From contig OZ244779.1 in NCBI GenBank assembly GCA_965219575.1, forward strand, positions 1,800,352 through 1,864,351: a stretch of 64,000 nt of DNA, read 5' to 3'. The translations under genes were made by a program, and so were the position numbers. This stretch comes from Candidatus Oxydemutatoraceae bacterium (GTDB lineage Bacteria; Pseudomonadota; Gammaproteobacteria; Poriferisulfidales; Oxydemutatoraceae). Shown here piece after piece: positions 30,136-53,494 of this stretch (the first letter of the stretch is position 1; each line of letters begins with the position of its first letter). Below the pieces are notes generated by a model. The model was not told the origin of the DNA. It searched no databases and saw only the letters and a program-made list of their open reading frames with translations.

Positions 30136-30139
30136 CGAC

Positions 30140-32160: not shown

Positions 32161-32164
32161 CTAT

Positions 32165-35240: not shown

Positions 35241-35351
35241 TTCGGGTTGACACTTTTCACGATCAGCACAAACATATGAACAGTTTTCCTTAACAATATC
35301 CAAATATAGAATCAGATTGCATATTTGTCCAAAATCGGATAGGATAAAAGT

Positions 35352-36515
35352 ATGAAGTATATTCCTCGAATCCTCTTAAAATCCCTTAAATCAATGTCTA
35401 AACAGTACCCTGTTGTAGCTGTGCTAGGTCCCAGACAGTCCGGAAAAACAACAATAACCCAAAAAGCCTTTCCTTCAAAACATTATATTTCTTTAGAGGA
35501 CTTAGACAACAGACAGTTTGCGCAACAAGATCCTAGAGGTTTCTTGGATAGCTATAAAAAAGGAGCTATTATTGATGAAGCCCAAAGATGCCCCGATTTG
35601 CTCTCCTATATTCAAACACATGTTGATCAAAACAAAAAAAAAGGACAATTTATTATCACCGGCTCTAATCAATTCTTACTAGAAGAAAAAATCACTCAAT
35701 CTCTAGCCGGACGGGTTTCCTTATTAAGGCTTCTTCCCTTATCCCTTCAGGAGCTAAAACAAGCTAAAAAAACAACTCCCTTAAACAAAATGATTTTTAA
35801 GGGATTTTACCCTCAACTCCATGTAGAAAATATTGAAATCGGTTCATTTTTTAATAATTACATAGAAACCTATGTAAGCAAGGATGTCCGCTTGATAAAA
35901 AATATAAGCAATTTATCTTCGTTTAACACTTTTATTAAACTATGCGCTAACCGAGCCGGACAACTGCTTAACTTGCAGTCTTTAGCAAACGACTGTGGCA
36001 TCACCCAAAATACGGTCAAGTCATGGATTTCTATTCTAGAGAGTAGCTTTATCTTAAAAAGAATATACCCCTATTATAAAAACTTTAATAAAAGGCTCGT
36101 AAAATCTCCAAAGATATACTTTTATGACACCGGTTTGCTTTGCCGATTATTATCTGTCAAAAAAGCGCAGGATCTAGCTTTTCATGCTCTAAAAGGTTTT
36201 ATTTTTGAAAACTTGATTTTCTCGGAGATAGAAAAATATTTTTTTAATCAAGGACAGAAAGCTCCACTTTATTTTTGGAGAGATAAAACAGGTCATGAAA
36301 TTGATTTTTTAATTGACAGTGACCATTTAAAGATAATAGAGGTTAAATCCGCTCAAACTTTTTCAACGGATTTCTTAAAGAACATCACTTATTTTTCTAA
36401 AATCAATCCAACTAAAAAAAGAAACTACTTAATTTATGCCGGAAAAGAAAAGCAAATTAGAGGCGATTGCTCTATTTTGCCTTGCTGGGACATCGATAAA
36501 ATTTTAGGTACTTAA
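35352..36515 (+). CDS. AAA-family ATPase with a C-terminal DUF4143 domain
   Basis: The Walker A reads VLGPRQSGKTT and the Walker B reads IIDEAQ. The C-terminal region is DUF4143-like. The gene is AT-rich. Confidence 0.75.
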   Translation: MKYIPRILLKSLKSMSKQYPVVAVLGPRQSGKTTITQKAFPSKHYISLEDLDNRQFAQQDPRGFLDSYKKGAIIDEAQRCPDLLSYIQTHVDQNKKKGQFIITGSNQFLLEEKITQSLAGRVSLLRLLPLSLQELKQAKKTTPLNKMIFKGFYPQLHVENIEIGSFFNNYIETYVSKDVRLIKNISNLSSFNTFIKLCANRAGQLLNLQSLANDCGITQNTVKSWISILESSFILKRIYPYYKNFNKRLVKSPKIYFYDTGLLCRLLSVKKAQDLAFHALKGFIFENLIFSEIEKYFFNQGQKAPLYFWRDKTGHEIDFLIDSDHLKIIEVKSAQTFSTDFLKNITYFSKINPTKKRNYLIYAGKEKQIRGDCSILPCWDIDKILGT

Positions 36516-36519
36516 GGCT

Positions 36520-36800
36520 GTTGAAAAAGTGCGGGCATCGCACATTAGAACCGCCGATTGAGCCGGTAGGTCAACCGGCAATTCTGATGTCTATCCTTAA
36601 GTACCGTCATGCGCAATACCAGCCGCCCTGTGCCAACAAATTATGGTTTCCATAGATTAAATGGATGAATGTGTAAATCGTGCAGGCGCAACGCGTTACG
36701 GGCAGAACAGAGCCGCCGATTGAGCCAGTAGGTCAATCGGCAATTTTGATGTCCGCCCCTACCACTCTATGAAATACTTTTTCAACAGCCCCGCGACACG
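36520..36800. repeat. Mosaic intergenic repeat array (modules D, A, C, A, B, D)
   Basis: ggctgttgaaaaagtgcgggcatcgcac. ccgccgattgagccggtaggtcaaccggcaat occurs twice. A C module is present. Confidence 0.8.
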
Positions 36801-36913
36801 ACCACCCCGTCAGGCTGCACCGACATTATATTGGGGGAGGATCAATTTCGTAGTTTATATCGTGGTTTTTGCATGTTTAGAAAAGCATGTCAGCCCTCTT
36901 TACAGGATTACGA

Positions 36914-38053
36914 TTATAGTTTGATGCCGTCGAAAAAGTCTTTGATTACCGGCGCAAATTGATCAGCATCCACGAGAAAAGAATCGTGCCCGTAGTTTGA
37001 ATCCAATTCAACCAAGTCTACCGACTTACCGGCTTTTTGAAGTCCTTCGGCGATTTCACGCTGCTGTTCGAAAGGAAATAATATATCGGTGTCGACACCG
37101 ATAACCAAAGAATGCTTGGCGTGTACGTGTGCAAGTCCGGCATTGACCGAACCGCCGTGCTCGGCAACATCGAATAAGTCCATTGCGCGCGATAAATAGA
37201 GGTAGCAGTTTGCGTCAAACTGGGAAACAAATTTTCGGGCGTTGTAATCCAAATAAGATTCTATTTCAAACTCTAGACCGAATGGCTCAAGCGAACGTCG
37301 CTTGGCCGAGACTCTGGCTCGGTTAAAACGGTAGCGCCATTCGGAAGCCGAACGATACGACATTAAGCCTAGTTTCCTCGCCAGTACCATCCCGCAACTA
37401 GGTTCGTCATCGATAGGATAATGTCCATCGTTCCAGTTCGGGTCGCAGCGTATGATTTCTCGCTGCAAAGAACGCACCGCAATGGTAAAAGGCAATGCCC
37501 TGGTTGCAGCAGAAATGCAAACAAAGTAGTCCAACTCTTGCGGATACTGCAACGCATAAGCCAAGGCACTCATCCCACCCATAGAAGCACCGACTACTGC
37601 GAGCAAATGATCTATGCCCAGATCGTTCAGCGCATGGTGCGCGGATTTCGCAATATCCTCTATACTCAGTTCGGGAAAATCGATACCGTATGCTTTACCG
37701 GTTCGTGGATCGACCGATCGGGGTGATGTGGAACCGTAACAACTCCCTAATGAATTGACGCAAATTACATAAAAATGATCGGTATCTATGGGTTTGTTCG
37801 AACCTACCATATACTCCCACCACCCGACGGATGTATCTTCGGGCGACGAACAGGCGTGCGCAGTAGGCGATAAACCGGTGAACAGCAATACGACATTGTC
37901 GTGGTTGGGTGACAATTGACCCCATGCTTCGTACGCGATTTGTACCTCGGGCAATCGTCCGCCTCGGTACATTAAAAAGTCGCTGGTTCCGTAATCGCCG
38001 GACAATTTGATACACTTCGTCGCCGGAGGAATGTAGACTGCATTTTCTTCCAT
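36914..38053 (-). CDS. metX: Homoserine O-acyltransferase (MetX family alpha/beta hydrolase)
   Basis: GASMGGM nucleophile elbow. The overall pattern and the 379-aa length fit MetX. Confidence 0.85.
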   Translation of the reverse strand: MEENAVYIPPATKCIKLSGDYGTSDFLMYRGGRLPEVQIAYEAWGQLSPNHDNVVLLFTGLSPTAHACSSPEDTSVGWWEYMVGSNKPIDTDHFYVICVNSLGSCYGSTSPRSVDPRTGKAYGIDFPELSIEDIAKSAHHALNDLGIDHLLAVVGASMGGMSALAYALQYPQELDYFVCISAATRALPFTIAVRSLQREIIRCDPNWNDGHYPIDDEPSCGMVLARKLGLMSYRSASEWRYRFNRARVSAKRRSLEPFGLEFEIESYLDYNARKFVSQFDANCYLYLSRAMDLFDVAEHGGSVNAGLAHVHAKHSLVIGVDTDILFPFEQQREIAEGLQKAGKSVDLVELDSNYGHDSFLVDADQFAPVIKDFFDGIKL

Positions 38054-38102
38054 CGCTATTTACCCTTTACCTTAGCTTAAACGAGGTTTTTTAATATCGT
38101 CG

Positions 38103-38507
38103 CTAATTCCGCTTGCATGTTTTTATGGAGCTCACATAAACGATCGCAATCAAACCGACGCCTAGCATGGTCAACCTGCCGAGTTGTGTTTCCATAAATA
38201 GAAATGCAGATGTAGAGAATGCTATCGCCAATGTCAGGACAAACAAAATCTTATGCTTGAGCTCCAAGCATCTATCACGCTCCCATTTGAGTATCGCCGG
38301 CCCGACATGGCGATTCTCCACGAGCAGTTTGCGGAATCTAGGCGAAGTGCGCGCATAGCAAGCCGCTGCGACCACCAAAAAAGGAGAGGTCGGAACCACC
38401 GGTAGTATTAATGCGATCAATCCGAATAACAAAGAGAGATGCCCGACGAGCAAGATGAACCAACTTTTGAGCGAACGACTCTCCATCGTGGTTTGTAATT
38501 CGTTCAT
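38103..38507 (-). CDS. YbaN-like inner membrane protein (DUF454)
   Basis: LPVVPTSPFLVVAAACYARTSPRFRKLL is the typical DUF454 core. The ORF-track N-terminal extension overlaps cbiX, so the real start is probably at 38507 in an ATGA overlap. Confidence 0.7.
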   Translation of the reverse strand: MNELQTTMESRSLKSWFILLVGHLSLLFGLIALILPVVPTSPFLVVAAACYARTSPRFRKLLVENRHVGPAILKWERDRCLELKHKILFVLTLAIAFSTSAFLFMETQLGRLTMLGVGLIAIVYVSSIKTCKRN

Positions 38508-38869
38508 CGTTGTAGTGCGATGCGCTTCAGTAAATCTTCCATTTCGGGCTGCTTGCCGACGTAGTCGCATATCCGCATATCGATATGCGGATAGCGATTG
38601 CGTTGTTCCGCTACTATCCCGGGAATGTCGTCGGCGATATGTTTGCCTGCCGCTAAAAAATAAGGCAACAGAATTATCTCGTCGATGCCGTCGTCGGCAC
38701 ATCGTTGTATGCCGTCGGCTATCGAAGGCTCGGTAAGTTCTAAAAACACACAATCTATAAGATCGAAGTGCGCTCGTATCTTGCCTCTCAATCTATCGGT
38801 TAAATTGCGGATCTCGTCGTTTGAATATTGTCGGTTGCTACCGTGTGCAATAAGTAAAAGTGCTTTCAT
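38504..38869 (-). CDS. cbiX: Sirohydrochlorin chelatase of the CbiX family (short form)
   Basis: MKALLLIAHGS...LLPYFLAAGKHIADDIP. Length 121 aa. Confidence 0.8.
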   Translation of the reverse strand: MKALLLIAHGSNRQYSNDEIRNLTDRLRGKIRAHFDLIDCVFLELTEPSIADGIQRCADDGIDEIILLPYFLAAGKHIADDIPGIVAEQRNRYPHIDMRICDYVGKQPEMEDLLKRIALQR

Positions 38870-38921
38870 GGTTCTTAGGATAATGATAAAATTGTTTTAT
38901 TATATTATACTCCTACAAACA

Positions 38922-39587
38922 ATGGCATACCGAAAAAGATACACTTGTTTATTTATCTTGATAGCCACGATTGCATTTACCGGGTGCAGCGGGGGTAAAG
39001 TCAAAAACCTCGCTAAAACCGATATAGACATCGTTGCCGACACCATAGTCAACAACCTAGACGATTATATCTTGCGATTGGCACACGAGCTATATAGAAC
39101 AAACCCCGAAGAATTAGCCAAATCTCGCAACTTTAGCTTAGAGCAGCGTCTCAACCAAATCGTTGATTACCCCGTTGAAGTCGCCTACCGAGAAATCGAC
39201 AACAAACGGCAAGTCAAGGCGATCGAGCTTGCGTTGGACGATTCTTACGACGGCGATAGAGTCTTTGCGTTGATGATCGGCATCAGTAGCATGATTCGAA
39301 TTTCATACGATAACCAACGGGAATTCTTCATCTTTGATTCTATAGACCCTCAAAAGCTATACGACAGTAGCTACAACCTGCAACTGTTAAAACAAAAACT
39401 TTTGAATATGTCGCCCAAGCTATTTCGTATAGATACAAATTACGGTGATACCAATAACGCCTATGCCCTAATAGAAAAAATCGGCACGACCCAAGATCTT
39501 ATGTCGCACATTATTTCCGATAAAACCAGCCGAGTGATCAACAAAACCATAATCGGTACCGCAACCGCTTTCGTTCCTATCATATAA
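38922..39587 (+). CDS. Hypothetical lipoprotein
   Basis: MAYRKRYTCLFILIATIAFTGCSGG carries a lipobox. The ORF-track start at 38685 is an artefactual extension. Confidence 0.6.
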   Translation: MAYRKRYTCLFILIATIAFTGCSGGKVKNLAKTDIDIVADTIVNNLDDYILRLAHELYRTNPEELAKSRNFSLEQRLNQIVDYPVEVAYREIDNKRQVKAIELALDDSYDGDRVFALMIGISSMIRISYDNQREFFIFDSIDPQKLYDSSYNLQLLKQKLLNMSPKLFRIDTNYGDTNNAYALIEKIGTTQDLMSHIISDKTSRVINKTIIGTATAFVPII

Positions 39588-40129
39588 CTTTGTACTCGTG
39601 CAGATGTGCAGGGGCTGTTGAAAAAGTATCCACGAACTGTAGGAACGGTACATTCCTCTCCTTCGGAGGGGTGGCAGGTGCAGCCTAACGGGGTGGTCTT
39701 AAAAATGAGGGTGTAATCTTCTTCAACGCCACATCTGTAAGGCACCCGGAAACCTACAAATTTACAAAAAAAATGAAATGGTTAGCCGAGGATAAGTATA
39801 ATATCCCGTTTTTCTGGATTGAGCATCAAACCTATGAGGATACGGGCAGATATGGATGGAAGCTATATTCTTTTAGATCATAAACAGACTAGTTAGGCGC
39901 AGATACGTCAGAACCCTGTTCAAGGCTTGATCTAATGAGGAGATTCTCAATCGGTAAACGCAGGATAAAATGCTACACAATGACAAGTTTAGGTTGGACT
40001 CCGGCTGGAGTGTCATGGTGAGTTCAGAGCGGGAGATTTCCTGCCTCTTGAATAAACTGACGACCGAATCTATGACAGCTTTTTGGTAATCCAGAATCGT
40101 CTTCAAAATGGAGTTTCATGTTATGCACT

Positions 40130-41680
40130 TTATGCACTCAGCCTCCAGTTTTCATGCAAGACTTTAAGCAATTCACTTTGATAACTTTGCAGGTGTTCCG
40201 GTGTCCACTGCTTAGCACCCAACGCTTTTAATGTTAATGCGTAGGCTGGTACTTTGTCCGTACCAGAGGAGTAGGCCTCCTTTTTCTTCTCAAATCCCCA
40301 ATTCTTCGCCGATGCGTTACGGTTTTGGCCGAGAGGAATCAGATTCGCGAGGCGATGTACCCACTCTTTGTGATTTTCATCAGACCATGAGTTTGCCCAC
40401 TCGGTATTATTTATCGTTTGCGGTAGAACATGCTCAATAGTCAGCTTTCTACCATCGTATGAGGTAGCACCATCCGAAATAAAAGAATCAAGGCGAAGGA
40501 TCAGGTAGTTTCTTCGTTTTGCAGTGAGTTTATCATAGATATTTTCGTTCAACGCCTCACGCATTTTTTCTTTTTCCATCTCGGTCAATTCAACGGCTTG
40601 GACGGGAGAGTTAAGTGAATTTTCGCCCTCCAATGCTTCTATAACATCGCTGTAGCACTTGATCCTGTGGTTAACGCTCAGGCCGCATATATGCATATAG
40701 GCTGCCAAACGCTCAAGACTATTGAAAAACTGCGCAACGTATTTTGGATTTTCATTTCCAGAAAGAAACAGTATCGCCACCGGTATCCAGTCCGAGTTAT
40801 CAATACGGTTAAGCCAATAAAGGTATGTATTTACTTCTTCAGCGTAGGATTTGGCTTTGTAGTTGTTAGAGTAAACCGTTGCCAAAGCACTTGCATAAGG
40901 TTCTAATTCTTCAATAAGTGCTTTAGGCTCGACTTTACTAAGCACATAGTTTCTAAACTCATCTAGAAGGGGCTTCCTCGCCTTCTCTTTGGCATAAATC
41001 ATTCGAACATAGGTGAACAGGTTGTTGAAGCCATCACGACCTAATTCGTGCTCCATATTTTGCCATCGCTCGTTGTGTTCATCTTGCTCTTCGTCCGTAG
41101 CGAACTCGCCGATAATGTCTGCCTTAATGATGTCTGTCGGCTTAAGATCAAGTCCACGATCATTTAGGACTGAAAACACACGGAAAGCTGAATCCTTACT
41201 TGACGCAATTACGACAACAAGATAGCAGTTATTAACCAAAAAAGTCACAAAATCAAAGATGCTATTAGCATCGTTACCAAAATTTTCCTTGATTTTCAGG
41301 AGAAGTGATTGGCTGTTTTTTTTGATGTTTCTTTGAGATTCGGTTTTAAACTCTTCTTCGTTAAGACCTTTTAGCTTATCAAAATCTAGTTTTTGTATGT
41401 GATCCAAGAAAAATTGATTGTCATTTTTTTCCCCTAACGTCAGGCGGGGTTTAGACTCTAATTTTTGGGTTTCTTTTCCGGGTTCGATAATATACTCATT
41501 AACAATTTCCTCCTGCTTGGGCTCTTACTCAGACTTGTAGAAATCAAAAAGATCATCGAAAAGTGCTTCAGTATGCTCTTGCTCCCACGCATAAGGCCTT
41601 TGATAGGGCGGAACGACGAAAAAGTGAGATCCGAATATTTCTAACAAGGGCTGTTCCTCAGCACTGATTGTCTCGCTCAT
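40130..41680 (-). pseudogene. GmrSD-like (DUF262/DUF1524) type-IV-restriction-type gene, disrupted. An in-frame TAA lies at codon 52 (41525-41527). The canonical DGQQR motif is not recognisable.
   Basis: The N-terminal fragment FVVPPYQRPYAWEQEH is the DUF262 YQRxYxW motif. Downstream are FSVLNDRGLDLKPTDIIKA (second half of DUF262) and EHVLPQ...N...W (DUF1524 HxxP). The two pieces are in one frame separated only by a stop. Confidence 0.7.
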
Positions 41681-41864
41681 GACATTACCTCATTTTTAGG
41701 GCTATCTAAGTCACTTGGCTCATCGCTAGTACCGTCAAAGCTAAAAAGTATGGTTTTAGAGTTTGCCATTTTATCATCTCCTCAAAAAGTTAATGTTTTA
41801 CCTATTTACAAAGCCTGTCTATTATTTGAAAACATATTATCACTAGCAACATGCTCGCTAGGTA

Positions 41865-42060
41865 TTATATATCGGGCTGTTGAAAAAGTGCGGCATCGTA
41901 CGAATCCAATCACTTGCGCCATTTGGTTTTGGTTTCCATAAATTGGATGGATGAATGTATAAATCGTGTAGGCACAACGCGTTACGGGCGGACATGTTAG
42001 TCCGCCCCTACAGGTGGGTTGGATAATTATGCGGCGCAAGCGGTTACGGTTTTGCAGAAC
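41865..42060. repeat. Repeat modules D, C, B and C, located immediately 5' of the IS3-family transposase fragment
   Basis: ggctgttgaaaaagtgcggcatcgtacgaatc...ggtttccataaattggatggatgaatgtataaatcgtg...gggcggacatgttagtccgcccctac. Confidence 0.75.
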
Positions 42061-42098
42061 AGTATTTTTTCAACAGTCCCATATTAATTCACTTAAAA

Positions 42099-42290
42099 AT
42101 GAGATTGTTGAAAAAGTATCTACGAACCGTAAAAGCAGGCTTCAACGGTTGCCTGAACCAATTCTGGTTTCGTTCAATAAAAGAGGCAAGAGAGATTATA
42201 GAAAACTGGCGCACAGATTATAATGAAGTCCGTCCGCACAGCGCACTAAGGTATCAACCCCCGAGTGTACTTGCGGAGGCAACAGCATGA
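42099..42290 (+). pseudogene. C-terminal fragment of an IS3-family (rve integrase core) transposase
   Basis: FNGCLNQFWFRSIKEAREIIENWRTDYNEVRPHSALRYQPP is the classic C-terminus of IS3 OrfB. Confidence 0.75.
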
Positions 42291-42395
42291 AAACTGGCTT
42301 TGCAGGTAATCCTAAAAATGGAAGAACGTCACGATTATGGTTTCCATGGATTAAATGGGTAAATGTATCAATCGTTCACAAAATGCAAAATCGGA
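42290..42395. repeat. Module-C-like repeat abutting the 3' end of the transposase fragment
   Basis: gattatggtttccatggattaaatgggtaaatgtatcaatcgttcac resembles the C modules elsewhere in the window. Confidence 0.55.
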
Positions 42396-42396
42396 T

Positions 42397-42705
42397 TTAA
42401 CTGCCGTTCTGCAATACGACATACTCTTTCTTAATGTTTTTCTTAAAACTATCGGGGATATTTTCCCAATCCATAATATCTACCGAAACTAGAATATCGC
42501 TCTTTGAAAAATTCTCTCTTAGTTCATAAATCTCATCGGAACTACAGTCAAAAACGACCAAATCTAAGTCGGATGTCTCCCGAGCTTCCTGTGTGATGCG
42601 AGATCCGTAGACCCAAACTTTTTTATTCGGAATATACCGGTTGATGATTTCCTTGACCATTCGGAGTTGATCCGCGTCCAAATCTATAAGTCGCTCATCG
42701 GTCAT
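42397..42705 (-). CDS. Nucleotidyltransferase (MNT/MntA-like, HI0073 family). Putative antitoxin.
   Basis: VWVYGSRITQEARETSDLDLVVF is the GS...DxD minimal nucleotidyltransferase motif. Confidence 0.75.
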   Translation of the reverse strand: MTDERLIDLDADQLRMVKEIINRYIPNKKVWVYGSRITQEARETSDLDLVVFDCSSDEIYELRENFSKSDILVSVDIMDWENIPDSFKKNIKKEYVVLQNGS

Positions 42706-43120
42706 TTCTATTTGCCATTTTCTTGTAGATTGCCTCGCAATCTTCAATGAAGCCTCCTATCTTATCCAGTGCCTGCATCGCTTTTTCTATGCTGTAGTCA
42801 TGTGCGGCATTTCCTCTGATTTTGTTATATTCAACTAGCCGCCGATGCGTTTCTTTATTTATTAGAAGATCCTCGTGTGCGCGGCGAAAAATGGGAATCG
42901 GTGAGTTTTCTAACTCCACCAAACCGTTTTCTTTCAAGTATTTCTTTATGTGTTTCCATAAAGTGTCATAACAAATCTCAAAACATTTAATAACCGAATT
43001 TTTGACGGCACGTCGGTTGACCTCGGATAAGTTTTGTTCGTCCAAAGTCAAAAAACTTCCGTATTGTGCTTTCAATTCGCCAAGCGATTTATCTAATTTC
43101 TCATAATTGGTTTCGTTCAT
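42695..43120 (-). CDS. HEPN-domain protein (HI0074-family nucleotidyltransferase substrate-binding protein). Putative toxin.
   Basis: The IRGNAAHDY segment is an Rx4H HEPN motif. 141 aa. It sits immediately upstream of the MNT gene with a 5-nt gap. Confidence 0.7.
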   Translation of the reverse strand: MNETNYEKLDKSLGELKAQYGSFLTLDEQNLSEVNRRAVKNSVIKCFEICYDTLWKHIKKYLKENGLVELENSPIPIFRRAHEDLLINKETHRRLVEYNKIRGNAAHDYSIEKAMQALDKIGGFIEDCEAIYKKMANRNDR

Positions 43121-43179
43121 TTAGTTTTCCTCTGGTGCAGGGTGGGCATTTAAGTTTACCCTTAAAAATGCAAACATTA

Positions 43180-43450
43180 TGCCACAGTAAACTGCCGATT
43201 GAGCCAGTAGGTCAATAGGCGTGACATTGTGCAGAACCTTAGCGTGCTAGGTAGCTCATACATTACAAAATACAATATCCGCCGGTTGAGCCAGTAGGTC
43301 AATCGGCGTGACATTGTGCAGAACTTTAGGGGCTGCTGAAAAAGTGCGGACATCGCACAAATCCAACCGCTATGCGCCATTTGATTTTGGTTTCCATAAA
43401 TTGGATGAATGAATAAAATAGTGCAGATACGCAGCGACCACCCCGTCAGG
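43180..43450. repeat. Mosaic repeat array (A, A, D, C)
   Basis: aactgccgattgagccagtaggtcaataggcgtgacattgtgcagaacc occurs twice. ggggctgctgaaaaagtgcggacatcgcac...ggtttccataaattggatgaatg follows. Confidence 0.8.
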
Positions 43451-43511
43451 CTAATGCCTGCCACTCGTCCGGTGGTGGGGAATGGGCCGACACCCTACTT
43501 GTAATGTCGGG

Positions 43512-44267
43512 CTATACCGGGTTGTCTATCTCTATGTAGCGGTGATCAATCCGAAAATGTTCGGCTAAATGTTTGCCTAAGGCTTGTACTCCGTAGCGTT
43601 CGGTAGCGTGATGGCCGGCAGCGTAGTAGTGTATGCCCTCTTCCCTGGCAATATGCACCGTTCTCTCGGAAATCTCGCCGCTAATATAAGCATCCAAACC
43701 CAAGCGCGCCGCATCTTCTATGCAATCTTGTGCGGCACCGGTGCAGAGTCCCACGGTTTCAATTTGTGAACCACCGCCGGCTATCAGTTGCGGCGGTCTG
43801 GACAAAACCTGCTCTATTTTTTTCGCTAAGGCATCGGCACTGCACGGTGATACGGTACCGTGCCTCGCCAACTCGATGCCACCTAAATCACCGAAGGTGC
43901 CTTTGAGGGAAATGCCTAATCGCTTTGCCAGCTGCACATTGTTTCCGACTTCGTCGTGGGCATCCAGAGGAATATGGTAAGCGAGCAATCCGATATCGTT
44001 CTTTAACAAAGTGCGCAGTCGCTTTGCTTTCATCCCGAGTATCGCAGGATTTTCGTTGCGCCAAAAATAACCGTGATGCACCAGCAACACATCACCGTCA
44101 TTCTCTATCGTAGCGTCTATTAAGGCTTGCGCAGCGGTAACCCCCGATACGATGCAACGAATAACACGCGTGCTGCCAACCTGTAAACCATTAGGAGCAT
44201 AATCGTTGAAGCGTCCTACCTGCAGATATCGATCGGCATAACTTGCGATATCGTTCAACGATGTCAT
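43512..44267 (-). CDS. Nif3-family dinuclear metal centre protein (YbgI/YqfO-like)
   Basis: 251 aa. HHGYFW and IAAGHHATERYG are Nif3/NGG1p-interacting-factor motifs. Confidence 0.8.
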   Translation of the reverse strand: MTSLNDIASYADRYLQVGRFNDYAPNGLQVGSTRVIRCIVSGVTAAQALIDATIENDGDVLLVHHGYFWRNENPAILGMKAKRLRTLLKNDIGLLAYHIPLDAHDEVGNNVQLAKRLGISLKGTFGDLGGIELARHGTVSPCSADALAKKIEQVLSRPPQLIAGGGSQIETVGLCTGAAQDCIEDAARLGLDAYISGEISERTVHIAREEGIHYYAAGHHATERYGVQALGKHLAEHFRIDHRYIEIDNPV

Positions 44268-45571
44268 GGTTCTACTATGCGGCTTCGTGCGGCAGCGGCG
44301 TGCGCATACAAACCTTCGGCGGTGGCGAGTGTTTCGGCTATCTCTGCCAGATGTGCTGCGGCCTTTGCATTACACTGCACGATACTCGTGCGTTTTTGAA
44401 AATCATAGACACCCAACGGAGAAGAGAAGCGCGCACTGCCGCCGGTGGGCAACACATGGTTTGAACCCGCACAATAATCCCCCAATACCTCGCAGCTATA
44501 GGAACCTATAAAAACGGCTCCGGCATTTTTTATATAGTCTATCCATTGCTCGGCATCGTCCACCGCAAGCTCTAAATGTTCGGGCGCAATTGCATTGGCT
44601 ATTCGTATTGCGTGTTGCAAATCGGCAACCTTGACCAACAAGCCGTTATTATTGAGCGCAGCTTCTATTACTGTATTGCGTGCCATCGTCGGTAGCAAGC
44701 GATCTATTTCGGAACGCACCTGAGCCAAATAATCCGCATCGGGGCATAACAATATCGCACGCGCACGCTCGTCGTGTTCGGCTTGTGAAAATAAATCGAG
44801 TGCAAGCCACGACGCTTGCGTAGTACCGTCGGCGACGATTAAAATCTCGGAAGGTCCGGCAACCATGTCTATACCCACTCTGCCGAACACTTGACGTTTG
44901 GCTTCGTTGACATAAGCGTTTCCGGGTCCGACAATTTTAGAGACCGGAGTAATCGTTCGGGTGCCGTAAGCAAGGGCGGCAATCGCCTGCGCACCACCGA
45001 TGGTATATGCTTCGTCTATTTGCATCAATTCCAGCGCACACATCAATAACGGATTGAGGTGGCCACCGGGCGCAGGCAACATCGCAACGATACGCTCTAC
45101 GCCGGCAACTTGGGCAGGGATTGCATTCATTAAAAGCGACGACGGATATGCAGCTTTGCCACCCGGTATATAAAGCCCGACCGCATCTATCGCTCCGATT
45201 TTCTGCCCTAAGCGCACGCCGATCTCGTCTACGAATTGCCAATCTCGGCCGAGTTGTTTTTCGGCATAGCGGCGGATACGATCGGCTGCTTTGCCGAGTG
45301 CCTCCGACCATTCGGGCGATACGCTTGCGGCAAGTTGCGACCTTCGCTTCGCCGAAATGCGTAAAGCCGATACCGAGTCGGCTTTGATCTGATCGAATTG
45401 CTCGGTATAGTCCAGTATCGCCTCGTCGTCGCGATCGCGTACATCGTCGATGATAGAGCGTACCGAATTTTCAATATCGGCACCGACAATCTGCGCGTGT
45501 GCTATGTATTTTTTTATCTGTTCATCGAAGTCTGCGTCGGAAGCATCGAGCTGTTGCAAGGCCAGTGTCAT
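44264..45571 (-). CDS. hisD: Histidinol dehydrogenase
   Basis: QAEHDERARAILL, GPGNAYV and SGGxARF-type motifs. The start MTLALQQLD overlaps the aro stop (TAATG). Confidence 0.9.
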   Translation of the reverse strand: MTLALQQLDASDADFDEQIKKYIAHAQIVGADIENSVRSIIDDVRDRDDEAILDYTEQFDQIKADSVSALRISAKRRSQLAASVSPEWSEALGKAADRIRRYAEKQLGRDWQFVDEIGVRLGQKIGAIDAVGLYIPGGKAAYPSSLLMNAIPAQVAGVERIVAMLPAPGGHLNPLLMCALELMQIDEAYTIGGAQAIAALAYGTRTITPVSKIVGPGNAYVNEAKRQVFGRVGIDMVAGPSEILIVADGTTQASWLALDLFSQAEHDERARAILLCPDADYLAQVRSEIDRLLPTMARNTVIEAALNNNGLLVKVADLQHAIRIANAIAPEHLELAVDDAEQWIDYIKNAGAVFIGSYSCEVLGDYCAGSNHVLPTGGSARFSSPLGVYDFQKRTSIVQCNAKAAAHLAEIAETLATAEGLYAHAAAARSRIVEP

Positions 45572-46647
45572 TAAGCCTTTCCTGCTTGTACCGCCGAGGC
45601 AAGTATCTCCAGTACTTCGGTGGTGTCGTTCCAACCCATGCACGCATCGGTAATACTCTGCCCGTATACCAATCCTTGTTTGTCGAGCGTGCCGTCCGAA
45701 TTGAATTTGAGGTCTTGCCGACCTTCTACCAAATGGCTCTCTATCATCACACCCATAATGCGTCGCTCGCCGGCTCGTAATTGCCGTGCAACATCCTCGG
45801 CAGCGATCTTCTGCCGCTCGAATTGTTTGCTACTGTTGGCATGGCTAAAATCAATCATCACTTTTTCGGCCTGTTTGCTTTCGGCGAGCAGAGTCGCTGC
45901 GTATTCGACGCTGTCGCTGTCGTAGTTGGTTTTACCGCCTCCGCCGCGCATGATGATATGGCAATCGGCATTGCCGGTTGTTGAAAAAATAGCCGAGTGT
46001 CCGCCTTTGGTCACCGATAAAAAGTGATGCGGTTGCGAGGCCGAGCGCATCGCATCTACGGCTATTTGTATGTTGCCGTGCGTGCCGTTTTTAAATCCGA
46101 CCGGACAAGATAAACCGGAAGCGAGTTCGCGGTGGGTCTGGCTCTCGGTGGTACGCGCACCTATCGCCCCCCAAGCGATCAAATCCGAAATATATTGCGG
46201 GCTAATCAAATCCAGATATTCGGTTGCCGCCGATACACCTTTGCTATTCAAATCCAACAACAGCTTGCGAGCAACTTTGACACCTTTGTTAATCCTAAAA
46301 CTATTGTCTAAATCGGGGTCGTTGATCAAGCCTTTCCAGCCCACCGTGGTACGCGGTTTTTCAAAATACACGCGCATGACTATGTGTAGCTGATCTTCGT
46401 ACTGCGCGATCAGGGGTTGCAGACGGTCGGCGTATTCAAGTGCCGCCTGCGTGTCGTGAACTGAGCAAGGACCGGCGATTACGAGCAAGCGACGATCCTC
46501 GTCGTGTAAGATATTTTTAATCGCTAGACGAGATTTATAAACACATTCCGATACCGCTTCGGTAATCGGCAAGCGGCTCGTCAAGTCCTGCGGAGCAATA
46601 AGATCTTTAATCTCGTTTATTCTTAGATCGTCTGTTTCATATTTCAT
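45571..46647 (-). CDS. aroG: 3-deoxy-7-phosphoheptulonate (DAHP) synthase, class I alpha
   Basis: LLVIAGPCSVHD, KPRTTVGWKGLINDP and IMRGG are AroG/F/H signatures. Confidence 0.85.
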   Translation of the reverse strand: MKYETDDLRINEIKDLIAPQDLTSRLPITEAVSECVYKSRLAIKNILHDEDRRLLVIAGPCSVHDTQAALEYADRLQPLIAQYEDQLHIVMRVYFEKPRTTVGWKGLINDPDLDNSFRINKGVKVARKLLLDLNSKGVSAATEYLDLISPQYISDLIAWGAIGARTTESQTHRELASGLSCPVGFKNGTHGNIQIAVDAMRSASQPHHFLSVTKGGHSAIFSTTGNADCHIIMRGGGGKTNYDSDSVEYAATLLAESKQAEKVMIDFSHANSSKQFERQKIAAEDVARQLRAGERRIMGVMIESHLVEGRQDLKFNSDGTLDKQGLVYGQSITDACMGWNDTTEVLEILASAVQAGKA

Positions 46648-46649
46648 TT

Positions 46650-47045
46650 GTGTTATTGTAGCTTATATGGGGCTGTTGAAAAAGTGCCGGCATTGCACAA
46701 AACTTGTGCAGACACGACGGGGCTGTTGAAAAAGTATCGTCAGCGTGCAACCGTGTAACCGCTTGCGTCGTGAATTTATAATAACCACCAAGCCGTAGGG
46801 GCAGACCTGTGTGTCTGCCCTTAAGTGCCGTTCTGCACGACACCAACCGCTTGCGCCAACAAATAATGGTTTCCATAAATTGGGTGGATGAATGTATAAA
46901 TCATGCAGGCGCAACGCGTTACGGGTAGAACAGAGCCGCCGATTGAGCCAGTAGGTCAATCGGCAATTTAATTTTAGTCCGCCCCTACCACTCTGTAAAA
47001 TACTTTTTCAACAGCCCCACGCCACAACCACCGATTGCGCTTGCG
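46650..47045. repeat. Mosaic repeat array (D, D, B, C, A, B, D)
   Basis: ggggctgttgaaaaagtgccggcattgcac appears twice. Also present are gtaggggcagacctgtgtgtctgccc, ggtttccataaattgggtggatgaatgtataaatc and ccgccgattgagccagtaggtcaatcggcaat. Confidence 0.8.
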
Positions 47046-47051
47046 CCCTTT

Positions 47052-48290
47052 CTACAAACAAGTAACAGGAATTTGAATAATCCTCTCGGCAAGAAGTTTT
47101 ATTTCTCTAGCATTGTTGACCACAACGCCGTAAGGAAGCCGATGATCTTTGATAAATTTCCGTAAAGAAGAAAGCTGCTTCAAGGTGGTGGTCGTGCCTA
47201 ATTTGATCTCAACGGGTAAAACACCGAAAGTACCCTCTAGTACAAGGTCTATTTCTACCCCACCTCTAGTACGATAGTAGTAGTAATCGAAGTGTAAAGG
47301 TCCTAGAGCTTGAATACCTTTCAATACCTCCTCGATAACAAAACTTTCAAAGTTTAGACCGACCGAGGGATGTTTCAACAATCTATCTTTTGTTTCAATA
47401 CCCAATAGATAGTGAACTAGGCCTAAGTCTCTAAAAATTCCTTTGGGCATTTTCACGACCGATTTGGATTTGGATTTTTCGTAAGACGGCACCTTGCGCC
47501 ATAGGAAAGTTTTATCGATGATTTCGAGGTAATCTCTCACGCTCACTTCGGAACAGTCAATCGCACGTCCTAACTGCGCTTTGTTGATAATCGTCCCCGA
47601 CAAGCTGCTTAACATTTCAATAAAACGTCTGTACTTTAGCGTATCAATTTTGGGGAAAAGTTTTTTAATGTCCCTGTTGATGTACGTTTGATAATAGTTT
47701 TCCATCCACGCTCGATGAAATTCCATATTATCGGACCTAACAATTTCCGGGTAGCCGCCCTTTAATAGTCCTTTCCAAATATCGGTTCTAGAAAACACCC
47801 CATCGCTTAAAAAAGCAAGGTCATCCTCGTGATCGAGCGGCTTCGTGAATATCCGGTAAAAGTCGGGCAACGGCTTATGAAGAATCTCATTGGTTTTTAG
47901 GGTTCCCAACTCTACGATCCCTACTCTGCCGGCTAAGGTGTCGGAAACACTTTTAAGGAGATCCGGAGAACTTGAGCCGGTGAGCAGAAAACGTCCTTTC
48001 TTTTGTCTATCGCTATCTACAACAGATCTAAGTTCCTTGAATAGTTGCGGATACTCTTGTACTTCATCGATGATTAAATGGTCTTTGTGCTCTTGAAAGA
48101 AAAAGTCTATATCTCTGGTTATATAATCAAAATCTTTACCCTTTTCAAGATCAAAGTATTTCCAGCCGGGCGCACATTTTTTAGCCAGCGTGGTTTTACC
48201 TACCTGCCTAGACCCTACGATTAGGACTACGGGAAAAAACGATAATAGCTTATCGATATTCTGTTCTACATTCCTTTTTATATATGTCAT
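47052..48290 (-). CDS. AAA-family ATPase with a C-terminal DUF4143 domain (second paralog)
   Basis: The Walker A reads IVGSRQVGKTT and the Walker B reads IIDEVQ. The gene is AT-rich. Confidence 0.75.
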   Translation of the reverse strand: MTYIKRNVEQNIDKLLSFFPVVLIVGSRQVGKTTLAKKCAPGWKYFDLEKGKDFDYITRDIDFFFQEHKDHLIIDEVQEYPQLFKELRSVVDSDRQKKGRFLLTGSSSPDLLKSVSDTLAGRVGIVELGTLKTNEILHKPLPDFYRIFTKPLDHEDDLAFLSDGVFSRTDIWKGLLKGGYPEIVRSDNMEFHRAWMENYYQTYINRDIKKLFPKIDTLKYRRFIEMLSSLSGTIINKAQLGRAIDCSEVSVRDYLEIIDKTFLWRKVPSYEKSKSKSVVKMPKGIFRDLGLVHYLLGIETKDRLLKHPSVGLNFESFVIEEVLKGIQALGPLHFDYYYYRTRGGVEIDLVLEGTFGVLPVEIKLGTTTTLKQLSSLRKFIKDHRLPYGVVVNNAREIKLLAERIIQIPVTCL

Positions 48291-48335
48291 ATCCTAATTG
48301 TACACTAGGATTTTACATATCAAATAATGGTGAGT

Positions 48336-49313
48336 CTAACGGCAATCTATTAAGATACGCCCCTGCACTCGCCTGCTCAGCAGTCGTTCAAAGCACATCG
48401 GCAATTCTTCCGGCTTGACAAGGTCGCAAAGCATCGCTTGTGCTAAAGTGGGCAGATATTTATCGCCTAGACTTTGCCAAATTTTCCGTTTCAGCGGCAT
48501 CGGACAATTCGCCGAAGTTACGCCGAGTAGGTTGATGCCGCGGATAATCAGCGGCATCACGTTGAGATTCACTTCCGACGATTCGGCCAAACCCACACTC
48601 ACTACATTGCCGCCGTTTCGGATGGCCTTTAGCAAGTTTGCCAGCGTGTTGCCACCTAGATTGTCTATCGCACCGCCCCATGTCGCTTTGGCCAATGCGC
48701 CGTCCACCGGACTAATCGCGCCGATGATTTTGGCGGCACCCAAACTCTTTAAGTACTCGTCGGCTTGCCGTTTATGGGTTGCCGCAACCGCTTCAAAGCC
48801 TAGTCGGTTGAGAAAATGCACGGCAAAACTTCCGACACCACCGCTCGCGCCGGTCACGACAACCGCGCCCAACTCGGGTGATTGGTCGTTTTGTAGCATG
48901 CGCTCCAAACTCAGTGCTGCGGTAAAACCGGCGGTGCCTATAATCATCGCAGTGCGCAAATCCAATCGTGACGGTACGGGAATGAGTATGTCGGCAGGCA
49001 CGATTGCATAAGGCGCATAACCACCGTCGTATATCTCTCCTAAACCACTGCCGGTTGCCAACACTTCGTCGCCCTTTTTGAATTCCGACACTGTGCTCTG
49101 CTCAACCACACCTGCCAAATCTATGCCCCCCGTCAATACTTCTTTTTTAATAATCGGTGCGCGACCGGTGGCGGCTATGGCATCCTTATAATTAACCCCC
49201 GAATAATGAACTTTAACTAAAACTTGACCTGCTTGAGGTTCGCCTATCTGCACGGTCTCGAAGCCGGCACGAAACGGTTTTTTATGGATACGAAAGGCTC
49301 GGCAACTTATCAT
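48336..49313 (-). CDS. yhdH: YhdH/AcuI-family NADPH-dependent oxidoreductase (MDR superfamily; putative acrylyl-CoA reductase)
   Basis: AMIIGTAGFTAALS and VVTGASGGVGS match E. coli YhdH. The probable start MISCRAF is in an ATGA overlap with the purK stop. Confidence 0.75.
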   Translation of the reverse strand: MISCRAFRIHKKPFRAGFETVQIGEPQAGQVLVKVHYSGVNYKDAIAATGRAPIIKKEVLTGGIDLAGVVEQSTVSEFKKGDEVLATGSGLGEIYDGGYAPYAIVPADILIPVPSRLDLRTAMIIGTAGFTAALSLERMLQNDQSPELGAVVVTGASGGVGSFAVHFLNRLGFEAVAATHKRQADEYLKSLGAAKIIGAISPVDGALAKATWGGAIDNLGGNTLANLLKAIRNGGNVVSVGLAESSEVNLNVMPLIIRGINLLGVTSANCPMPLKRKIWQSLGDKYLPTLAQAMLCDLVKPEELPMCFERLLSRRVQGRILIDCR

Positions 49314-50479: not shown

Positions 50480-50486
50480 CTCGAAC

Positions 50487-50996
50487 TTAAGGTTCTAGGG
50501 TGCTGTTATGCACAGCCTGTTGCTGCGCTTGTCCGAAATCTTCTAGGGCTTTTTGTAGCGACCGAGAATGTGTTGCGAGCATCCGACAAGCAAATAAAGC
50601 GGCATTTGCCGCACCCGCTTCACCGATCGCAAAAGTTGCAACCGGCACGCCTTTGGGCATCTGCACGATGGATAGCAAGGAATCTTGTCCTTTCAAATGC
50701 GCAGTGGGTATAGGCACGCCCAATACCGGTAGCGTGGTTAACGACGCAATCATTCCCGGTAAGTGGGCAGCTCCGCCGGCACCGGCAATAATGCACTGCA
50801 ATCCACGCGACTCGGCACTTTGTGCGTATCGATACATCAGCTCCGGTGTGCGGTGCGCCGATACGACTTTCTTTTCGAAATGCACAGCGAAGCGTGCCAA
50901 CATCTCGGCAGCACACCGCATTACCGGCCAGTCGCTTTGGCTACCCATCACGATGCCCACGAGTGTATCATCGGCAGATATATTTTCAGCTGACAT
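50487..50996 (-). CDS. purE: N5-carboxyaminoimidazole ribonucleotide mutase
   Basis: [11 protein letters not shown] and [10 protein letters not shown] are PurE signatures. Confidence 0.9.
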
Positions 50997-51026
50997 GGTA
51001 TTGATAATCCGATAAAGATTTGTATT

Positions 51027-53491: not shown

Positions 53492-53494
53492 TAT

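What the first reader, a model, noticed from the sequence alone, without database searches (positions are those of the whole stretch)
39590..43500. Decayed defence / mobile-element islet between housekeeping genes
The interval is bounded by repeat arrays. It holds, in order, an unexplained ~500-bp noncoding stretch, a GmrSD-like gene with a premature stop, an IS3-family transposase C-terminal fragment, and a HEPN/MNT pair in the less common HEPN-first order. GC content is low throughout. It looks like a former defence island that is now mostly eroded. It also shows where foreign DNA integrates in this genome, between a lipoprotein gene and nif3-hisD.
Basis: partly seen in the sequence, partly recalled or inferred. 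Interest (0 to 1): 0.5.

Follow-up and report, generated by a model that had tools for sequence, protein, structure and literature searches.

The report
Eroded defence islet with live toxin-antitoxin
A 3.9-kb strain-variable stretch between two housekeeping genes of a sponge-symbiont-like bacterium holds the wreckage of at least three anti-phage or mobile elements plus one intact toxin-antitoxin pair; this is an ordinary kind of bacterial "junkyard", now fully itemised.

Summary
Window 39588-43511 lies between a lipoprotein gene and nif3-hisD-aroG. In the closest sequenced species (a Ca. Porisulfidus MAG, about 86% nt identity in the flanks) the same two genes are only 468 bp apart and carry none of the islet genes. 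A second strain (98.7% identical) has the islet with every lesion, so it is not an assembly artefact.

- **GmrSD-like gene:** Between the two strains it evolves neutrally (omega about 1.6).
- **"Unexplained 500 bp":** this is a MITE fragment, a 70-codon internal stub of a PP-loop (SspD/DndC/BrxP-like) gene, and the first 48 codons of a Res helicase-nuclease gene. In intact relatives that Res gene follows the GmrSD-like gene in a five-gene cluster: SNF2, DUF4391, methylase, GmrSD-like, Res.
- **IS3 piece:** only the last roughly 190 bp of the element, including its right end.
- **HEPN/MNT pair:** intact, with catalytic motifs present and strong purifying selection (omega about 0.07). Its HEPN-first order is the rule in its clade, and most members sit inside type I restriction operons with MNT fused to HsdS.

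Verdict: a new member of a known kind, of modest interest.

The parts
39594..39700 (.). Left-boundary fragment of the genome's MITE family. It comprises a terminal repeat (GGGGCTGTTGAAAAAGT at 39611-39627) and a roughly 50-nt hairpin module (39647-39698). That module recurs in inverted orientation at 43436-43490.
   Evidence: (D4, D7, I8).
39701..39913 (+). Internal stub of a PP-loop (adenine-nucleotide alpha-hydrolase, PAPS-reductase-like) protein. It covers about residues 36-107 of a roughly 420-430 aa protein and contains an in-frame stop at 39878-39880.
   Evidence: phmmer against 1.84 billion representatives gave 66 hits, best E 1.8e-15. tblastn placed the stub at 39701-39913. Intact members have weak SspD/BrxP/DndC and PAPS_reduct similarity.
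39975..40119 (-). N-terminal stub (first 48 codons) of a roughly 1010-aa ResIII/DEAD/RE_endonuc gene. It carries a +1 frameshift (an extra T at about 40095) and is truncated after codon 48.
   Evidence: tblastn with the genes downstream of the intact homologues, 75-78% identity, E 3e-13. Nucleotide alignment confirms the frameshift.
40121..40138 (.). 9-bp tandem duplication (AGTGCATAA on the minus strand) spanning the stop codon of the GmrSD-like gene.
40130..41680 (-). GmrSD-like (DUF262 + DUF1524) pseudogene. It has a TAA at 41525-41527 and a 43-codon in-frame deletion (junction about 41518/41519) that removes the DGQQR motif. Intact homologues are about 563 aa.
41681..41867 (.). 187-bp AT-rich stretch (34% GC) upstream of the pseudogene. 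It holds no remnant of the methylase gene that precedes intact homologues. Its origin is unknown.
41868..42084 (.). Complete short MITE copy, with terminal inverted repeats at 41874-41889 and 42064-42079.
42092..42131 (.). Solo MITE terminus, 92% identical to 39616-39641. It abuts the truncated IS3 remnant.
   Evidence: D7, D14.
42140..42331 (+). Right end of an IS3-family element: the last roughly 50 codons of the transposase (stop at 42288-42290) plus the terminal inverted repeat ending ...GTCA at 42331.
   Evidence: Aligns at 79% nt identity with a fuller (itself degenerate) IS3 copy in L178 whose right end is defined.
42332..42378 (.). Fragment of a MITE internal module.
   Evidence: (D1).
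42397..42705 (-). MNT (minimal nucleotidyltransferase), 102 aa from the ATG. The G-S-x10-D-x-D motif is intact. The putative antitoxin.
42695..43120 (-). HEPN protein (NTase_sub_bind, HI0074-like), 141 aa, with the motif R102-x4-H107-x-Y109. The putative RNase toxin.
43182..43490 (.). Right-boundary repeat cluster. It holds two direct copies of a 49-nt module (43194-43242 and 43281-43329), a truncated MITE (43329-43431) and the hairpin module (43436-43490) that is inverted relative to 39647-39698.
   Evidence: (D2, D4, I8).

Best explanation
Window 39588-43511 is an accessory "junkyard" spacer in a MITE-rich gammaproteobacterium related to Ca. Porisulfidus. It holds four relics and one working module.

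**Relic 1.** A GmrSD-like pseudogene and the first 48 codons of the adjacent Res gene. These are what is left of a roughly 11-kb, five-gene, type III-like cluster (SNF2 helicase, DUF4391, N6/N4 methylase, GmrSD-like, Res). Elsewhere this cluster travels next to Tn7-like genes.

**Relic 2.** A 70-codon stub of a PP-loop protein. Its intact relatives head uncharacterised operons that look like DNA-modification systems.

**Relic 3.** The right end of an IS3 element.

**Relic 4.** One complete MITE and several MITE fragments. These sit at almost every junction, which suggests (by inference) that MITE/IS insertion and recombination between repeats did the truncating.

**The working module** is a 722-bp HEPN->MNT cassette. 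The mechanism is inferred by homology to type VII HepT/MntA-type systems. HEPN is an Rx4H RNase toxin. MNT (GSx10DxD) neutralises it by AMPylating the tyrosine two residues after the catalytic histidine (Y109). Loss of the cassette, or of MNT activity, would free the toxin. This addiction-like property would explain why this pair stays intact while its neighbours decay.

The cassette belongs to a clade that is always HEPN-first. Most members lie inside type I R-M operons as hsdM-HEPN-MNT::hsdS. The window's copy is a free-standing derivative.
For: **Accessory status**
- L002 has the lipoprotein gene and nif3 468 bp apart, and no islet genes occur in 80 nif3 loci.
- A second strain, L001, aligns without gaps across the islet.

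**GmrSD-like pseudogene**
- One stop plus a 43-codon deletion of DGQQR, compared with 563-aa homologues.
- 9.5 nonsynonymous to 1.5 synonymous changes between strains, omega about 1.6, against 0.03-0.3 in core genes.
- 86 private replacements at 339 otherwise invariant sites.

**Res stub and native five-gene context:**

**PP-loop stub:**

**IS3 right end:**

**MITE family:** 16 terminal-repeat matches against 0.01 expected.

**HEPN/MNT pair**
- Full length relative to 56 homologues, with R102 invariant and H107 nearly invariant.
- AF2 model with pLDDT 87. Best PDB matches are HEPN toxins of HEPN-MNT systems and HI0074, with TM 0.7-0.82.
- omega 0.07 for both genes against the 86%-identical pair in another genome, where homology stops exactly at the gene pair.
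- The same 90% cluster is present elsewhere in the sister species' genome.
- Gene order and type I R-M embedding.
Against: - No expression or activity data exist, and promoter-like sites are not above chance.
- The HEPN and MNT score below NCBIfam's HepT, MntA and HI0074 cut-offs. The gene order is the reverse of the characterised systems, so the AMPylation mechanism is extrapolated.
- Between the two strains the HEPN/MNT genes have no differences, so recent selection cannot be measured.
- The role of MITEs in the deletions is inferred from position only.
- The pseudogene has far fewer stops (1) than its divergence would predict under neutrality (5-11). The relic is therefore either recently inactivated or not entirely neutral.
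- Gain versus loss at this site is not polarised, because only one sister species shares the synteny.
Confidence: 0.8

Rival explanations
1. The islet is ancestral to the two species and was deleted in the sister species. On this view the site is not a place where foreign DNA enters, only a place where old cargo is being lost.
For: Only one genome (L002) shares the downstream synteny, so polarity cannot be set. L002's 468-bp spacer is itself remodelled: it holds repeat modules and about 250 bp of unrelated sequence. The lesions are shared by both strains, so the cargo is not recent.
Against: The islet GC is below that of the flanks. The sister genome carries a cassette of the same HEPN cluster at another position. 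Near-identical cassettes sit between unrelated housekeeping genes in L092 and L178. Both points argue for movement rather than vertical retention.
Confidence: 0.25
2. The whole islet, including HEPN/MNT, is inert DNA on its way out.
For: Every neighbouring element is broken. The sister species' copy of the HEPN has the catalytic His replaced by Tyr. In L177 and L178 the partner MNT is internally deleted or interrupted by an IS. Such pairs do therefore decay in this group.
Against: Both ORFs are full length with all catalytic motifs. omega is 0.07 over dS 0.6-1.2 against L092. Translational-coupling overlap and an RBS-like GAGGAA upstream of the HEPN are preserved.
Confidence: 0.1
3. The 425-aa remainder of the GmrSD-like gene (TTG start at 41407) is still a working stand-alone DUF1524/HNH nuclease.
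For: A long open frame with an intact GmrSD_C domain (83.8 bits). Only one stop is present, where 5-11 are expected if the divergence were neutral.
Against: The DGQQR motif and the N-terminal part of DUF262 are gone. The strain-to-strain substitution pattern is neutral at 9.5N:1.5S. The partner genes are deleted. There are 86 private changes at invariant sites.
Confidence: 0.07
4. The islet arrived en bloc as a composite element bounded by the inverted roughly 50-nt hairpin modules at 39647-39698 and 43436-43490.
For: The modules are inverted. Their 17-nt core is 94% complementary and the similarity is about 77% over 49 nt (I8, 29). The modules are absent from L002's empty spacer.
Against: The same module is a common dispersed repeat elsewhere in the window and in L002. 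No transposase is intact and no target duplication was identified. The cargo comes from at least four unrelated sources in different states of decay, which suggests stepwise accretion.
Confidence: 0.1

Closest known systems
Type VII toxin-antitoxin HepT/MntA (Shewanella SO_3166/SO_3165; Aphanizomenon HEPN/MNT) and the HI0073/HI0074 pair
   Same: A two-gene module of a small HEPN protein with Rx4H followed by x-Tyr, and a minimal nucleotidyltransferase with GSx10DxD. The genes overlap. The predicted fold matches these crystal structures at TM 0.66-0.82. It passes Pfam NTase_sub_bind, Polbeta and NTP_transf_2.
   Different: The gene order is reversed: HEPN is first, whereas MNT is "almost always" 5' according to PMC3710099 and in SO_3165/3166 (PMC4621449). 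Scores fall below the NCBIfam HepT, MntA and HI0074 cut-offs. Most clade relatives have MNT fused to a type I specificity subunit.
GmrSD / BrxU / SspE-type DUF262-DUF1524 enzymes (type IV, modification-dependent restriction)
   Same: The domain pair GmrSD_N + GmrSD_C. Intact homologues match the PADLOC "Orf5" and "HEC-06" models end to end.
   Different: Here it is a pseudogene lacking DGQQR. Intact relatives are embedded between a methylase and a Res gene in a five-gene SNF2/DUF4391 cluster, not stand-alone.
PrrC-type anticodon nuclease embedded in the EcoprrI type Ic R-M locus
   Same: In the wider clade of this HEPN, an RNase-type toxin gene lies inside a type I R-M operon. This matches the "second line of defence guarded by the R-M complex" scheme described in PMC3710099.
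   Different: PrrC carries its own ABC-type NTPase regulator and no MNT. Here the regulator is an MNT domain, fused to HsdS in relatives. The window's copy has no R-M genes around it.
Defence islands and IS/MITE-driven gene decay in host-restricted symbionts
   Same: A low-GC variable spacer between core genes. It holds fragments of several defence systems, an IS remnant and abundant MITEs.
   Different: It is very small (3.9 kb), has no integrase or tRNA, and only one of five cargo items is still intact.

Membership tests
HEPN-MNT (type VII HepT/MntA-like) toxin-antitoxin | HEPN fold with an Rx4-6H motif | tested here: met
   RGNAAH at residues 102-107; R102 is invariant and H107 at least 90% conserved across 21 homologues. 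The AF2 model has pLDDT 87 and its best PDB matches are HEPN toxins with TM 0.7-0.82. Pfam NTase_sub_bind scores 54.1 bits against a 31.8 cut-off.
HEPN-MNT (type VII HepT/MntA-like) toxin-antitoxin | Tyrosine two residues after the catalytic His (the AMPylation site in HepT and the Aphanizomenon HEPN) | tested here: met
   Y109 is invariant in the alignment. That this residue is the modified one is from my own knowledge of the published systems and is consistent with PDB entries for AMPylated HEPN among the fold matches.
HEPN-MNT (type VII HepT/MntA-like) toxin-antitoxin | MNT with the GSx10DxD nucleotidyltransferase motif | tested here: met
   The sequence is YGSRITQEARETSDLDLVVF. Pfam Polbeta scores 45 bits and NTP_transf_2 32.6 bits, both above their cut-offs.
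HEPN-MNT (type VII HepT/MntA-like) toxin-antitoxin | Antitoxin (MNT) gene upstream of the toxin gene | tested here: not met
   HEPN is upstream here and in 78 of 78 related loci.
HEPN-MNT (type VII HepT/MntA-like) toxin-antitoxin | Passes the NCBIfam equivalog models HepT_toxin and MntA_antitoxin | tested here: not met
   Scores are 15.9 and 34.4 bits against cut-offs of 60. HI0074 subfamily scores 45.1 against 55.8.
HEPN-MNT (type VII HepT/MntA-like) toxin-antitoxin | Toxicity of HEPN and its neutralisation or AMPylation by MNT | not testable with these tools
   This needs expression assays and mass spectrometry.
GmrSD family (DUF262 + DUF1524) | N-terminal DUF262/ParB-like domain with the DGQQR motif | tested here: not met
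   The 43 codons that include IDGQQRLTT are deleted, and there is a stop at codon 52.
GmrSD family (DUF262 + DUF1524) | C-terminal DUF1524 (HNH-like) domain | tested here: met
   GmrSD_C scores 83.8 bits and covers profile positions 3-138 of 138.
IS3 family insertion sequence | OrfA (HTH) plus OrfB with a DDE rve core, and both terminal inverted repeats | tested here: not met
   Only the last roughly 50 codons (rve_3) and the right end are present. It is a remnant, not an element.
MITE | Short, non-coding, multi-copy, with terminal inverted repeats | tested here: met
   There are 16 terminal-repeat matches against 0.01 expected, and six complete copies of 206-308 bp. Target-site duplications and the parent autonomous element were not identified.
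Genomic island (site-specific) | Integrase and a tRNA or att site | tested here: not met
   No tRNA lies in 30000-50000, and no integrase ORF is present.

The most novel reading that the evidence does not exclude
The window's HEPN->MNT pair may be a freed copy of an undescribed type I R-M "guard" module. In most relatives the MNT antitoxin domain is the N-terminus of the HsdS specificity subunit, and the HEPN gene sits between hsdM and hsdS. This would tether the toxin's neutraliser to the restriction complex. Phage anti-restriction proteins, or loss of the complex, would then unleash the RNase. The logic is PrrC-like but is achieved through an AMPylating antitoxin. In the window, the free-standing form would act as an addiction module that keeps an otherwise dead islet in place.
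Probability: 0.3. Interest if true: 0.6.

Novelty: new member of a known kind. Interest (0 to 1): 0.3.

Why it matters
As a genome feature this is ordinary. Small defence-gene graveyards next to IS and MITE copies are expected in host-associated bacteria. Its value is as a cleanly dissected example.

- Every base of a 3.9-kb variable spacer can be assigned, except about 250 bp.
- Four independent relics are dated relative to a strain split.
- There is a contrast in selection between a dead nuclease gene (omega about 1.6) and a live toxin-antitoxin pair (omega about 0.07).

The more useful by-product is the context of the HEPN clade. All 78 informative relatives are HEPN-first, and 46 of them have MNT fused to HsdS inside type I R-M operons. 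This gives a concrete, testable link between type VII-like TA modules and restriction complexes.

Tried and rejected
- **Rfam, E-value mode, 38500-44500.** The only match was a sub-threshold mir-580 hit (28 bits against an 83 gathering score) on the hairpin formed by adjacent inverted MITE ends at 42046-42130. I rejected it as chance.
- **tRNA/tmRNA scan, 30-50 kb.** Nothing found.
- **Promoter and terminator scan.** Counts were not above shuffled expectation.
- **Remnants of SNF2, DUF4391 or the methylase from the five-gene cluster.** None found anywhere in the window.
- **Remnants of hsdR, hsdM or hsdS around HEPN/MNT.** None found.
- **First metagenome scan with the single HEPN protein.** No relatives found. 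The alignment-based scan succeeded.
- **Upstream 116-aa or 443-aa neighbours of GmrSD homologues as possible remnants at 41681-41867.** No match.
- **Phage collection.** No DNA match. The plasmid collection gave only a 64% match of the GmrSD region to an Acinetobacter plasmid.
- **Literature on DUF4391.** Nothing relevant.
- **Identity of the PADLOC "Orf5" model.** I could not establish which named system it belongs to.
- **Is the IS3 remnant the MITE's parent?** A MITE terminus abuts the remnant and a MITE module follows it. However, the IS3 right end defined from L178 (…GGTCA) is unrelated to the MITE terminus, so I do not claim a parent-offspring link.


Full report
**1. What is there**

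- A GmrSD-like gene lies on the minus strand at 40130-41680. It is split into a 51-codon and a 425-codon ORF in the same frame by a single TAA at 41525-41527.
- A 63-codon ORF at 42099-42290 (+) matches only the last 40 positions of rve_3 and positions 328-366 of 369 of the IS3 transposase model.
- An HEPN gene (NTase_sub_bind, 141 aa, 42695-43120, minus strand) is followed, with an 11-nt overlap, by an MNT gene (102 aa from the ATG, 42397-42705).
- The flanks are a lipobox-bearing ORF ending at 39587 on one side and nif3 (stop at 43512), hisD and aroG on the other.

The islet is therefore 39588-43511, which is 3924 bp.

**2. Source and accessory status**

The nif3 protein occurs identically on a 1.28-Mb ENA metagenome contig, L001.

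- L001 is 98.7% identical to the window over a 17.5-kb gapless alignment that includes the whole islet. Two independent assemblies of two strains therefore share every lesion, so this is not an assembly artefact.
- Among one-genome-per-species GTDB representatives, the closest nif3 (90% aa identity) is in a Ca. Porisulfidus MAG, L002. Ca. Porisulfidus MAGs come from sponge genome projects (PMC12988363).
- In L002, aroG-hisD-nif3 and lipoprotein-cbiX-DUF454-metX are collinear with the window at 83-86% nt identity. However, the nif3 and lipoprotein genes are only 468 bp apart.
- Neither L002 nor any of 79 further nif3 loci contains a homologue of HEPN, MNT, the IS3 piece or the GmrSD-like gene.
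- The L002 spacer contains its own repeat modules and about 250 bp of unrelated sequence.

GC is 41.8% in the islet against 46.8% for the window. That is moderately low: 7.7% of equal-sized windows are as low. There is no tRNA and no integrase.

**3. The GmrSD-like gene is more damaged than stated, but not ancient wreckage**

- Of 4296 homologues, the intact ones are about 563 aa and the nearest is only 61-67% identical.
- Besides the stop, which replaces a Pro codon, the alignment shows a 43-codon in-frame deletion. It removes GYFLGSIVL...IDGQQRLTT..., the signature motif of the DUF262 domain.
- Between the two strains the gene has 9.5 nonsynonymous and 1.5 synonymous differences, giving omega about 1.6. 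Neighbouring core genes give 0.03-0.3.
- It carries 86 private replacements at 339 positions that are invariant in six intact homologues. Those homologues themselves have 1-18.
- A neutral simulation predicts about 11 stops if all the divergence from the nearest homologue were unconstrained, and about 5 for even a 15% divergence. Only one stop is present.

Most of the divergence therefore predates inactivation. The donor was a divergent but functional lineage, and inactivation was fairly recent yet older than the strain split. This tension is recorded as unexplained in the notebook.

**4. The "unexplained ~500-bp noncoding stretch" is three remnants**

1. **39594-39700** is a fragment of the genome's MITE family (see section 6).
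2. **40119 down to 39975 (minus strand)** encodes the first 48 residues of a Res-type protein (ResIII/DEAD/RE_endonuc, about 1010 aa). In intact relatives this gene starts 1-2 nt after the GmrSD-like stop codon. The window copy has a 9-bp tandem duplication at the stop, a +1 frameshift (an extra T after codon 8), and is cut off after codon 48.
3. **39701-39913 (plus strand)** is a 70-codon internal piece (residues about 36-107) of a roughly 420-aa PP-loop protein with an internal stop.
   - An exhaustive phmmer search gave 66 hits, best E 1.8e-15.
   - Family members have no Pfam domain above threshold, but show weak PAPS_reduct, SspD, BrxP and DndC similarity.
   - They head multi-gene operons of unknown function. 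One of these, in a Bathymodiolus symbiont, ends in a GmrSD_N+HNH gene.

About 60 bp (39914-39974) and the 187-bp AT-rich stretch at 41681-41867 remain unassigned.

**5. Native context of the GmrSD-like gene**

In a Thiogranum MAG (L091), a Logan contig (L090) and an Acinetobacter gerneri plasmid, the intact gene is the fourth of five co-directional genes: SNF2-type helicase (about 1090 aa), DUF4391 (260 aa), N6/N4 methylase (630-670 aa), GmrSD-like (563 aa), and Res (1010 aa).

In two of these cases the cluster lies next to Tn7-like tniQ/tniB genes. Solo copies also exist. No remnant of the first three genes survives in the window.

The intact homologue matches the PADLOC models "Orf5" and "HEC-06" end to end. 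GmrSD-like genes embedded in helicase/methylase defence operons have been noted before (PMC11232893).

**6. Repeats**

The motif GGGGCTGTTGAAAAAGT occurs 16 times in the window (2 mismatches or fewer), against 0.01 expected. It forms the terminal inverted repeats of at least six 206-308-bp modular, non-coding elements.

In the islet:
- a complete copy lies at 41868-42084;
- a solo terminus lies at 42092-42131, abutting the IS3 remnant;
- an internal-module fragment lies at 42332-42378;
- the boundary pieces lie at 39594-39700 and 43182-43490.

The two boundaries carry inverted copies of a roughly 50-nt hairpin module (I8), but that module is dispersed elsewhere too. The family is present in L002 and absent from the other fetched loci.

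Repeat pieces sit at nearly every junction between relics. This fits repeat-mediated truncation, but that is an inference from position only.

**7. The IS3 piece**

The stretch from about 42140 to 42331 aligns at 79% nt identity with the 3' end of a fuller IS3 copy in L178. That copy's right inverted repeat (...GGTCA) is defined by the interrupted gene it sits in. The window piece therefore comprises the last roughly 50 codons plus the right terminal repeat.

In L178 that IS interrupts the MNT gene of an 80%-identical HEPN/MNT pair. In the window the IS remnant lies 65 bp beyond the intact MNT, in the opposite orientation. These are independent events.

**8. The HEPN/MNT pair is alive**

- The HEPN is full length relative to 56 homologues and retains R102-x4-H107-x-Y109, with R102 and Y109 invariant.
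- An AlphaFold model (pLDDT 87) matches HEPN toxins of HEPN-MNT systems, AMPylated HEPN structures, MntA-HepT and HI0074, with TM 0.66-0.82.
- The MNT keeps G-S-x10-D-x-D.
- Compared with an 86%-identical pair in another genome (L092), where DNA homology begins 5 nt before the HEPN start and ends 7 nt before the MNT stop, omega is 0.07 for each gene at dS 0.6-1.2.
- The cassette lies between different housekeeping genes in L092 and L178.
- A copy of the same 90% cluster exists elsewhere in the sister species' genome, there with the catalytic His changed to Tyr.

The pair is thus a mobile 722-bp two-gene unit under purifying selection.

By homology, the likely mechanism is an RNase toxin neutralised through AMPylation by its partner. 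This step is inferred, not shown. The proteins fall below the NCBIfam HepT, MntA and HI0074 cut-offs, and the gene order is reversed.

**9. Gene order explained**

In 80 metagenome loci encoding relatives of this HEPN (38-74% identity), the picture is different:
- All 78 loci with room downstream have HEPN followed by MNT.
- In 46 of them the MNT domain is the N-terminus of a 380-570-aa ORF with HsdS similarity, and hsdM lies directly upstream in 41 of these 46.
- In 28 the MNT is free-standing (99-221 aa).
- Four are cut by the contig end.

The same arrangement (hsdR-hsdM-HEPN-MNT::hsdS) is seen in three long contigs. The best PADLOC hit of the window's MNT is the N-terminus of a type I specificity-subunit model.

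The window's MNT ends (…YVVLQNGS*) exactly where the fusions continue into HsdS. No hsd remnants flank it.

General clustering of MNT-type HEPN genes with R-M operons has been noted (PMC3710099, Table 1). I found no description of the MNT::HsdS fusion clade in four literature searches (and the two reads), but the search was limited.

**10. Verdict**

The feature is an ordinary decayed defence and mobile-element spacer: a new member of a known kind.

Its content is now almost completely assigned: four relics from unrelated systems and one functional-looking toxin-antitoxin cassette. The most interesting lead lies outside the window, in the type I R-M-embedded relatives of that cassette.

Noticed in passing
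window 13198-13505, 18478-18776, 30394-30688, 36515-36791, 41868-42084, 46720-47017 (and solo ends at 30372, 39612, 43330, 46670): An abundant modular MITE family with terminal repeat GGGGCTGTTGAAAAAGT, 206-308 bp long, occurring roughly once per 10 kb. It is built from reusable hairpin modules. It is shared with the sister-species locus L002 (8 terminal-repeat hits in 20 kb) and absent from the other fetched loci. The parent autonomous element and the target duplication were not identified.
   Followed up: partly
L093 2463-5916, L094 2448-5889, L177 5615-9009, and 46 of the loci L095-L174: Type I R-M operons with an HEPN gene between hsdM and hsdS, and an MNT domain fused to the N-terminus of HsdS. 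All 78 informative relatives of the window's HEPN are HEPN-first. This is a possible PrrC-like guard arrangement.
   Followed up: partly
L178 5001-7374: An IS3-family element 79% identical (nt) to the window's remnant interrupts the MNT gene of an 80%-identical HEPN/MNT pair, between codons about 59 and 76. In L177 a 78%-identical HEPN is followed by an internally deleted MNT and then a complete type I R-M operon with its own HEPN.
   Followed up: partly
protein P0365 (sister-species contig CBDAVG010000002.1, position not fetched): The sister species carries an HEPN of the same 90% cluster somewhere other than the nif3 spacer. Its catalytic His of Rx4H is replaced by Tyr (RGNAAYDY), so it is probably a disarmed toxin.
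   Followed up: no
proteins P0371, P0374, P0377 (31,357-bp ENA contig, not fetched): A third lineage (nif3 about 96% identical) also has the MNT and a GmrSD-like ORF, called as 372 aa. At several sites that ORF retains family-consensus residues that the window copy has lost. It would be useful for dating the decay.
   Followed up: no
L091 4010-14726 and 15110-21692; L179 (Acinetobacter gerneri plasmid NZ_OR492670) 811-13918: The five-gene SNF2, DUF4391, methylase, GmrSD-like, Res cluster lies next to Tn7-like tniQ/tniB (and a TnsA-like gene) in two unrelated hosts. It is probably transposon cargo. I could not find a named defence system that corresponds to it.
   Followed up: partly
L175 6001-12116 (Bathymodiolus septemdierum symbiont AP013042), L176 6001-10975: The roughly 420-aa PP-loop family, a stub of which lies at window 39701-39913, has no Pfam domain above threshold. 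It heads operons of 4-7 unannotated genes, one ending in a GmrSD_N+HNH gene. This may be an uncharacterised DNA-modification or defence system.
   Followed up: partly
window 35394-36512 (+) and 47055-48290 (-): Two AAA_14/DUF4143 ATPase genes, 28% identical to each other, each sit beside a MITE. They bracket the block that is syntenic with L002, are absent from the L002 locus, and lie in low-GC stretches. They are further variable cargo at the edges of the conserved block.
   Followed up: partly
window 36751-54267 vs L001: Strain-to-strain differences are very patchy. There are no differences across 40978-42263 or 42265-45558, against up to about 3% in 49300-51000. This suggests recent recombination between strains.
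   Followed up: no
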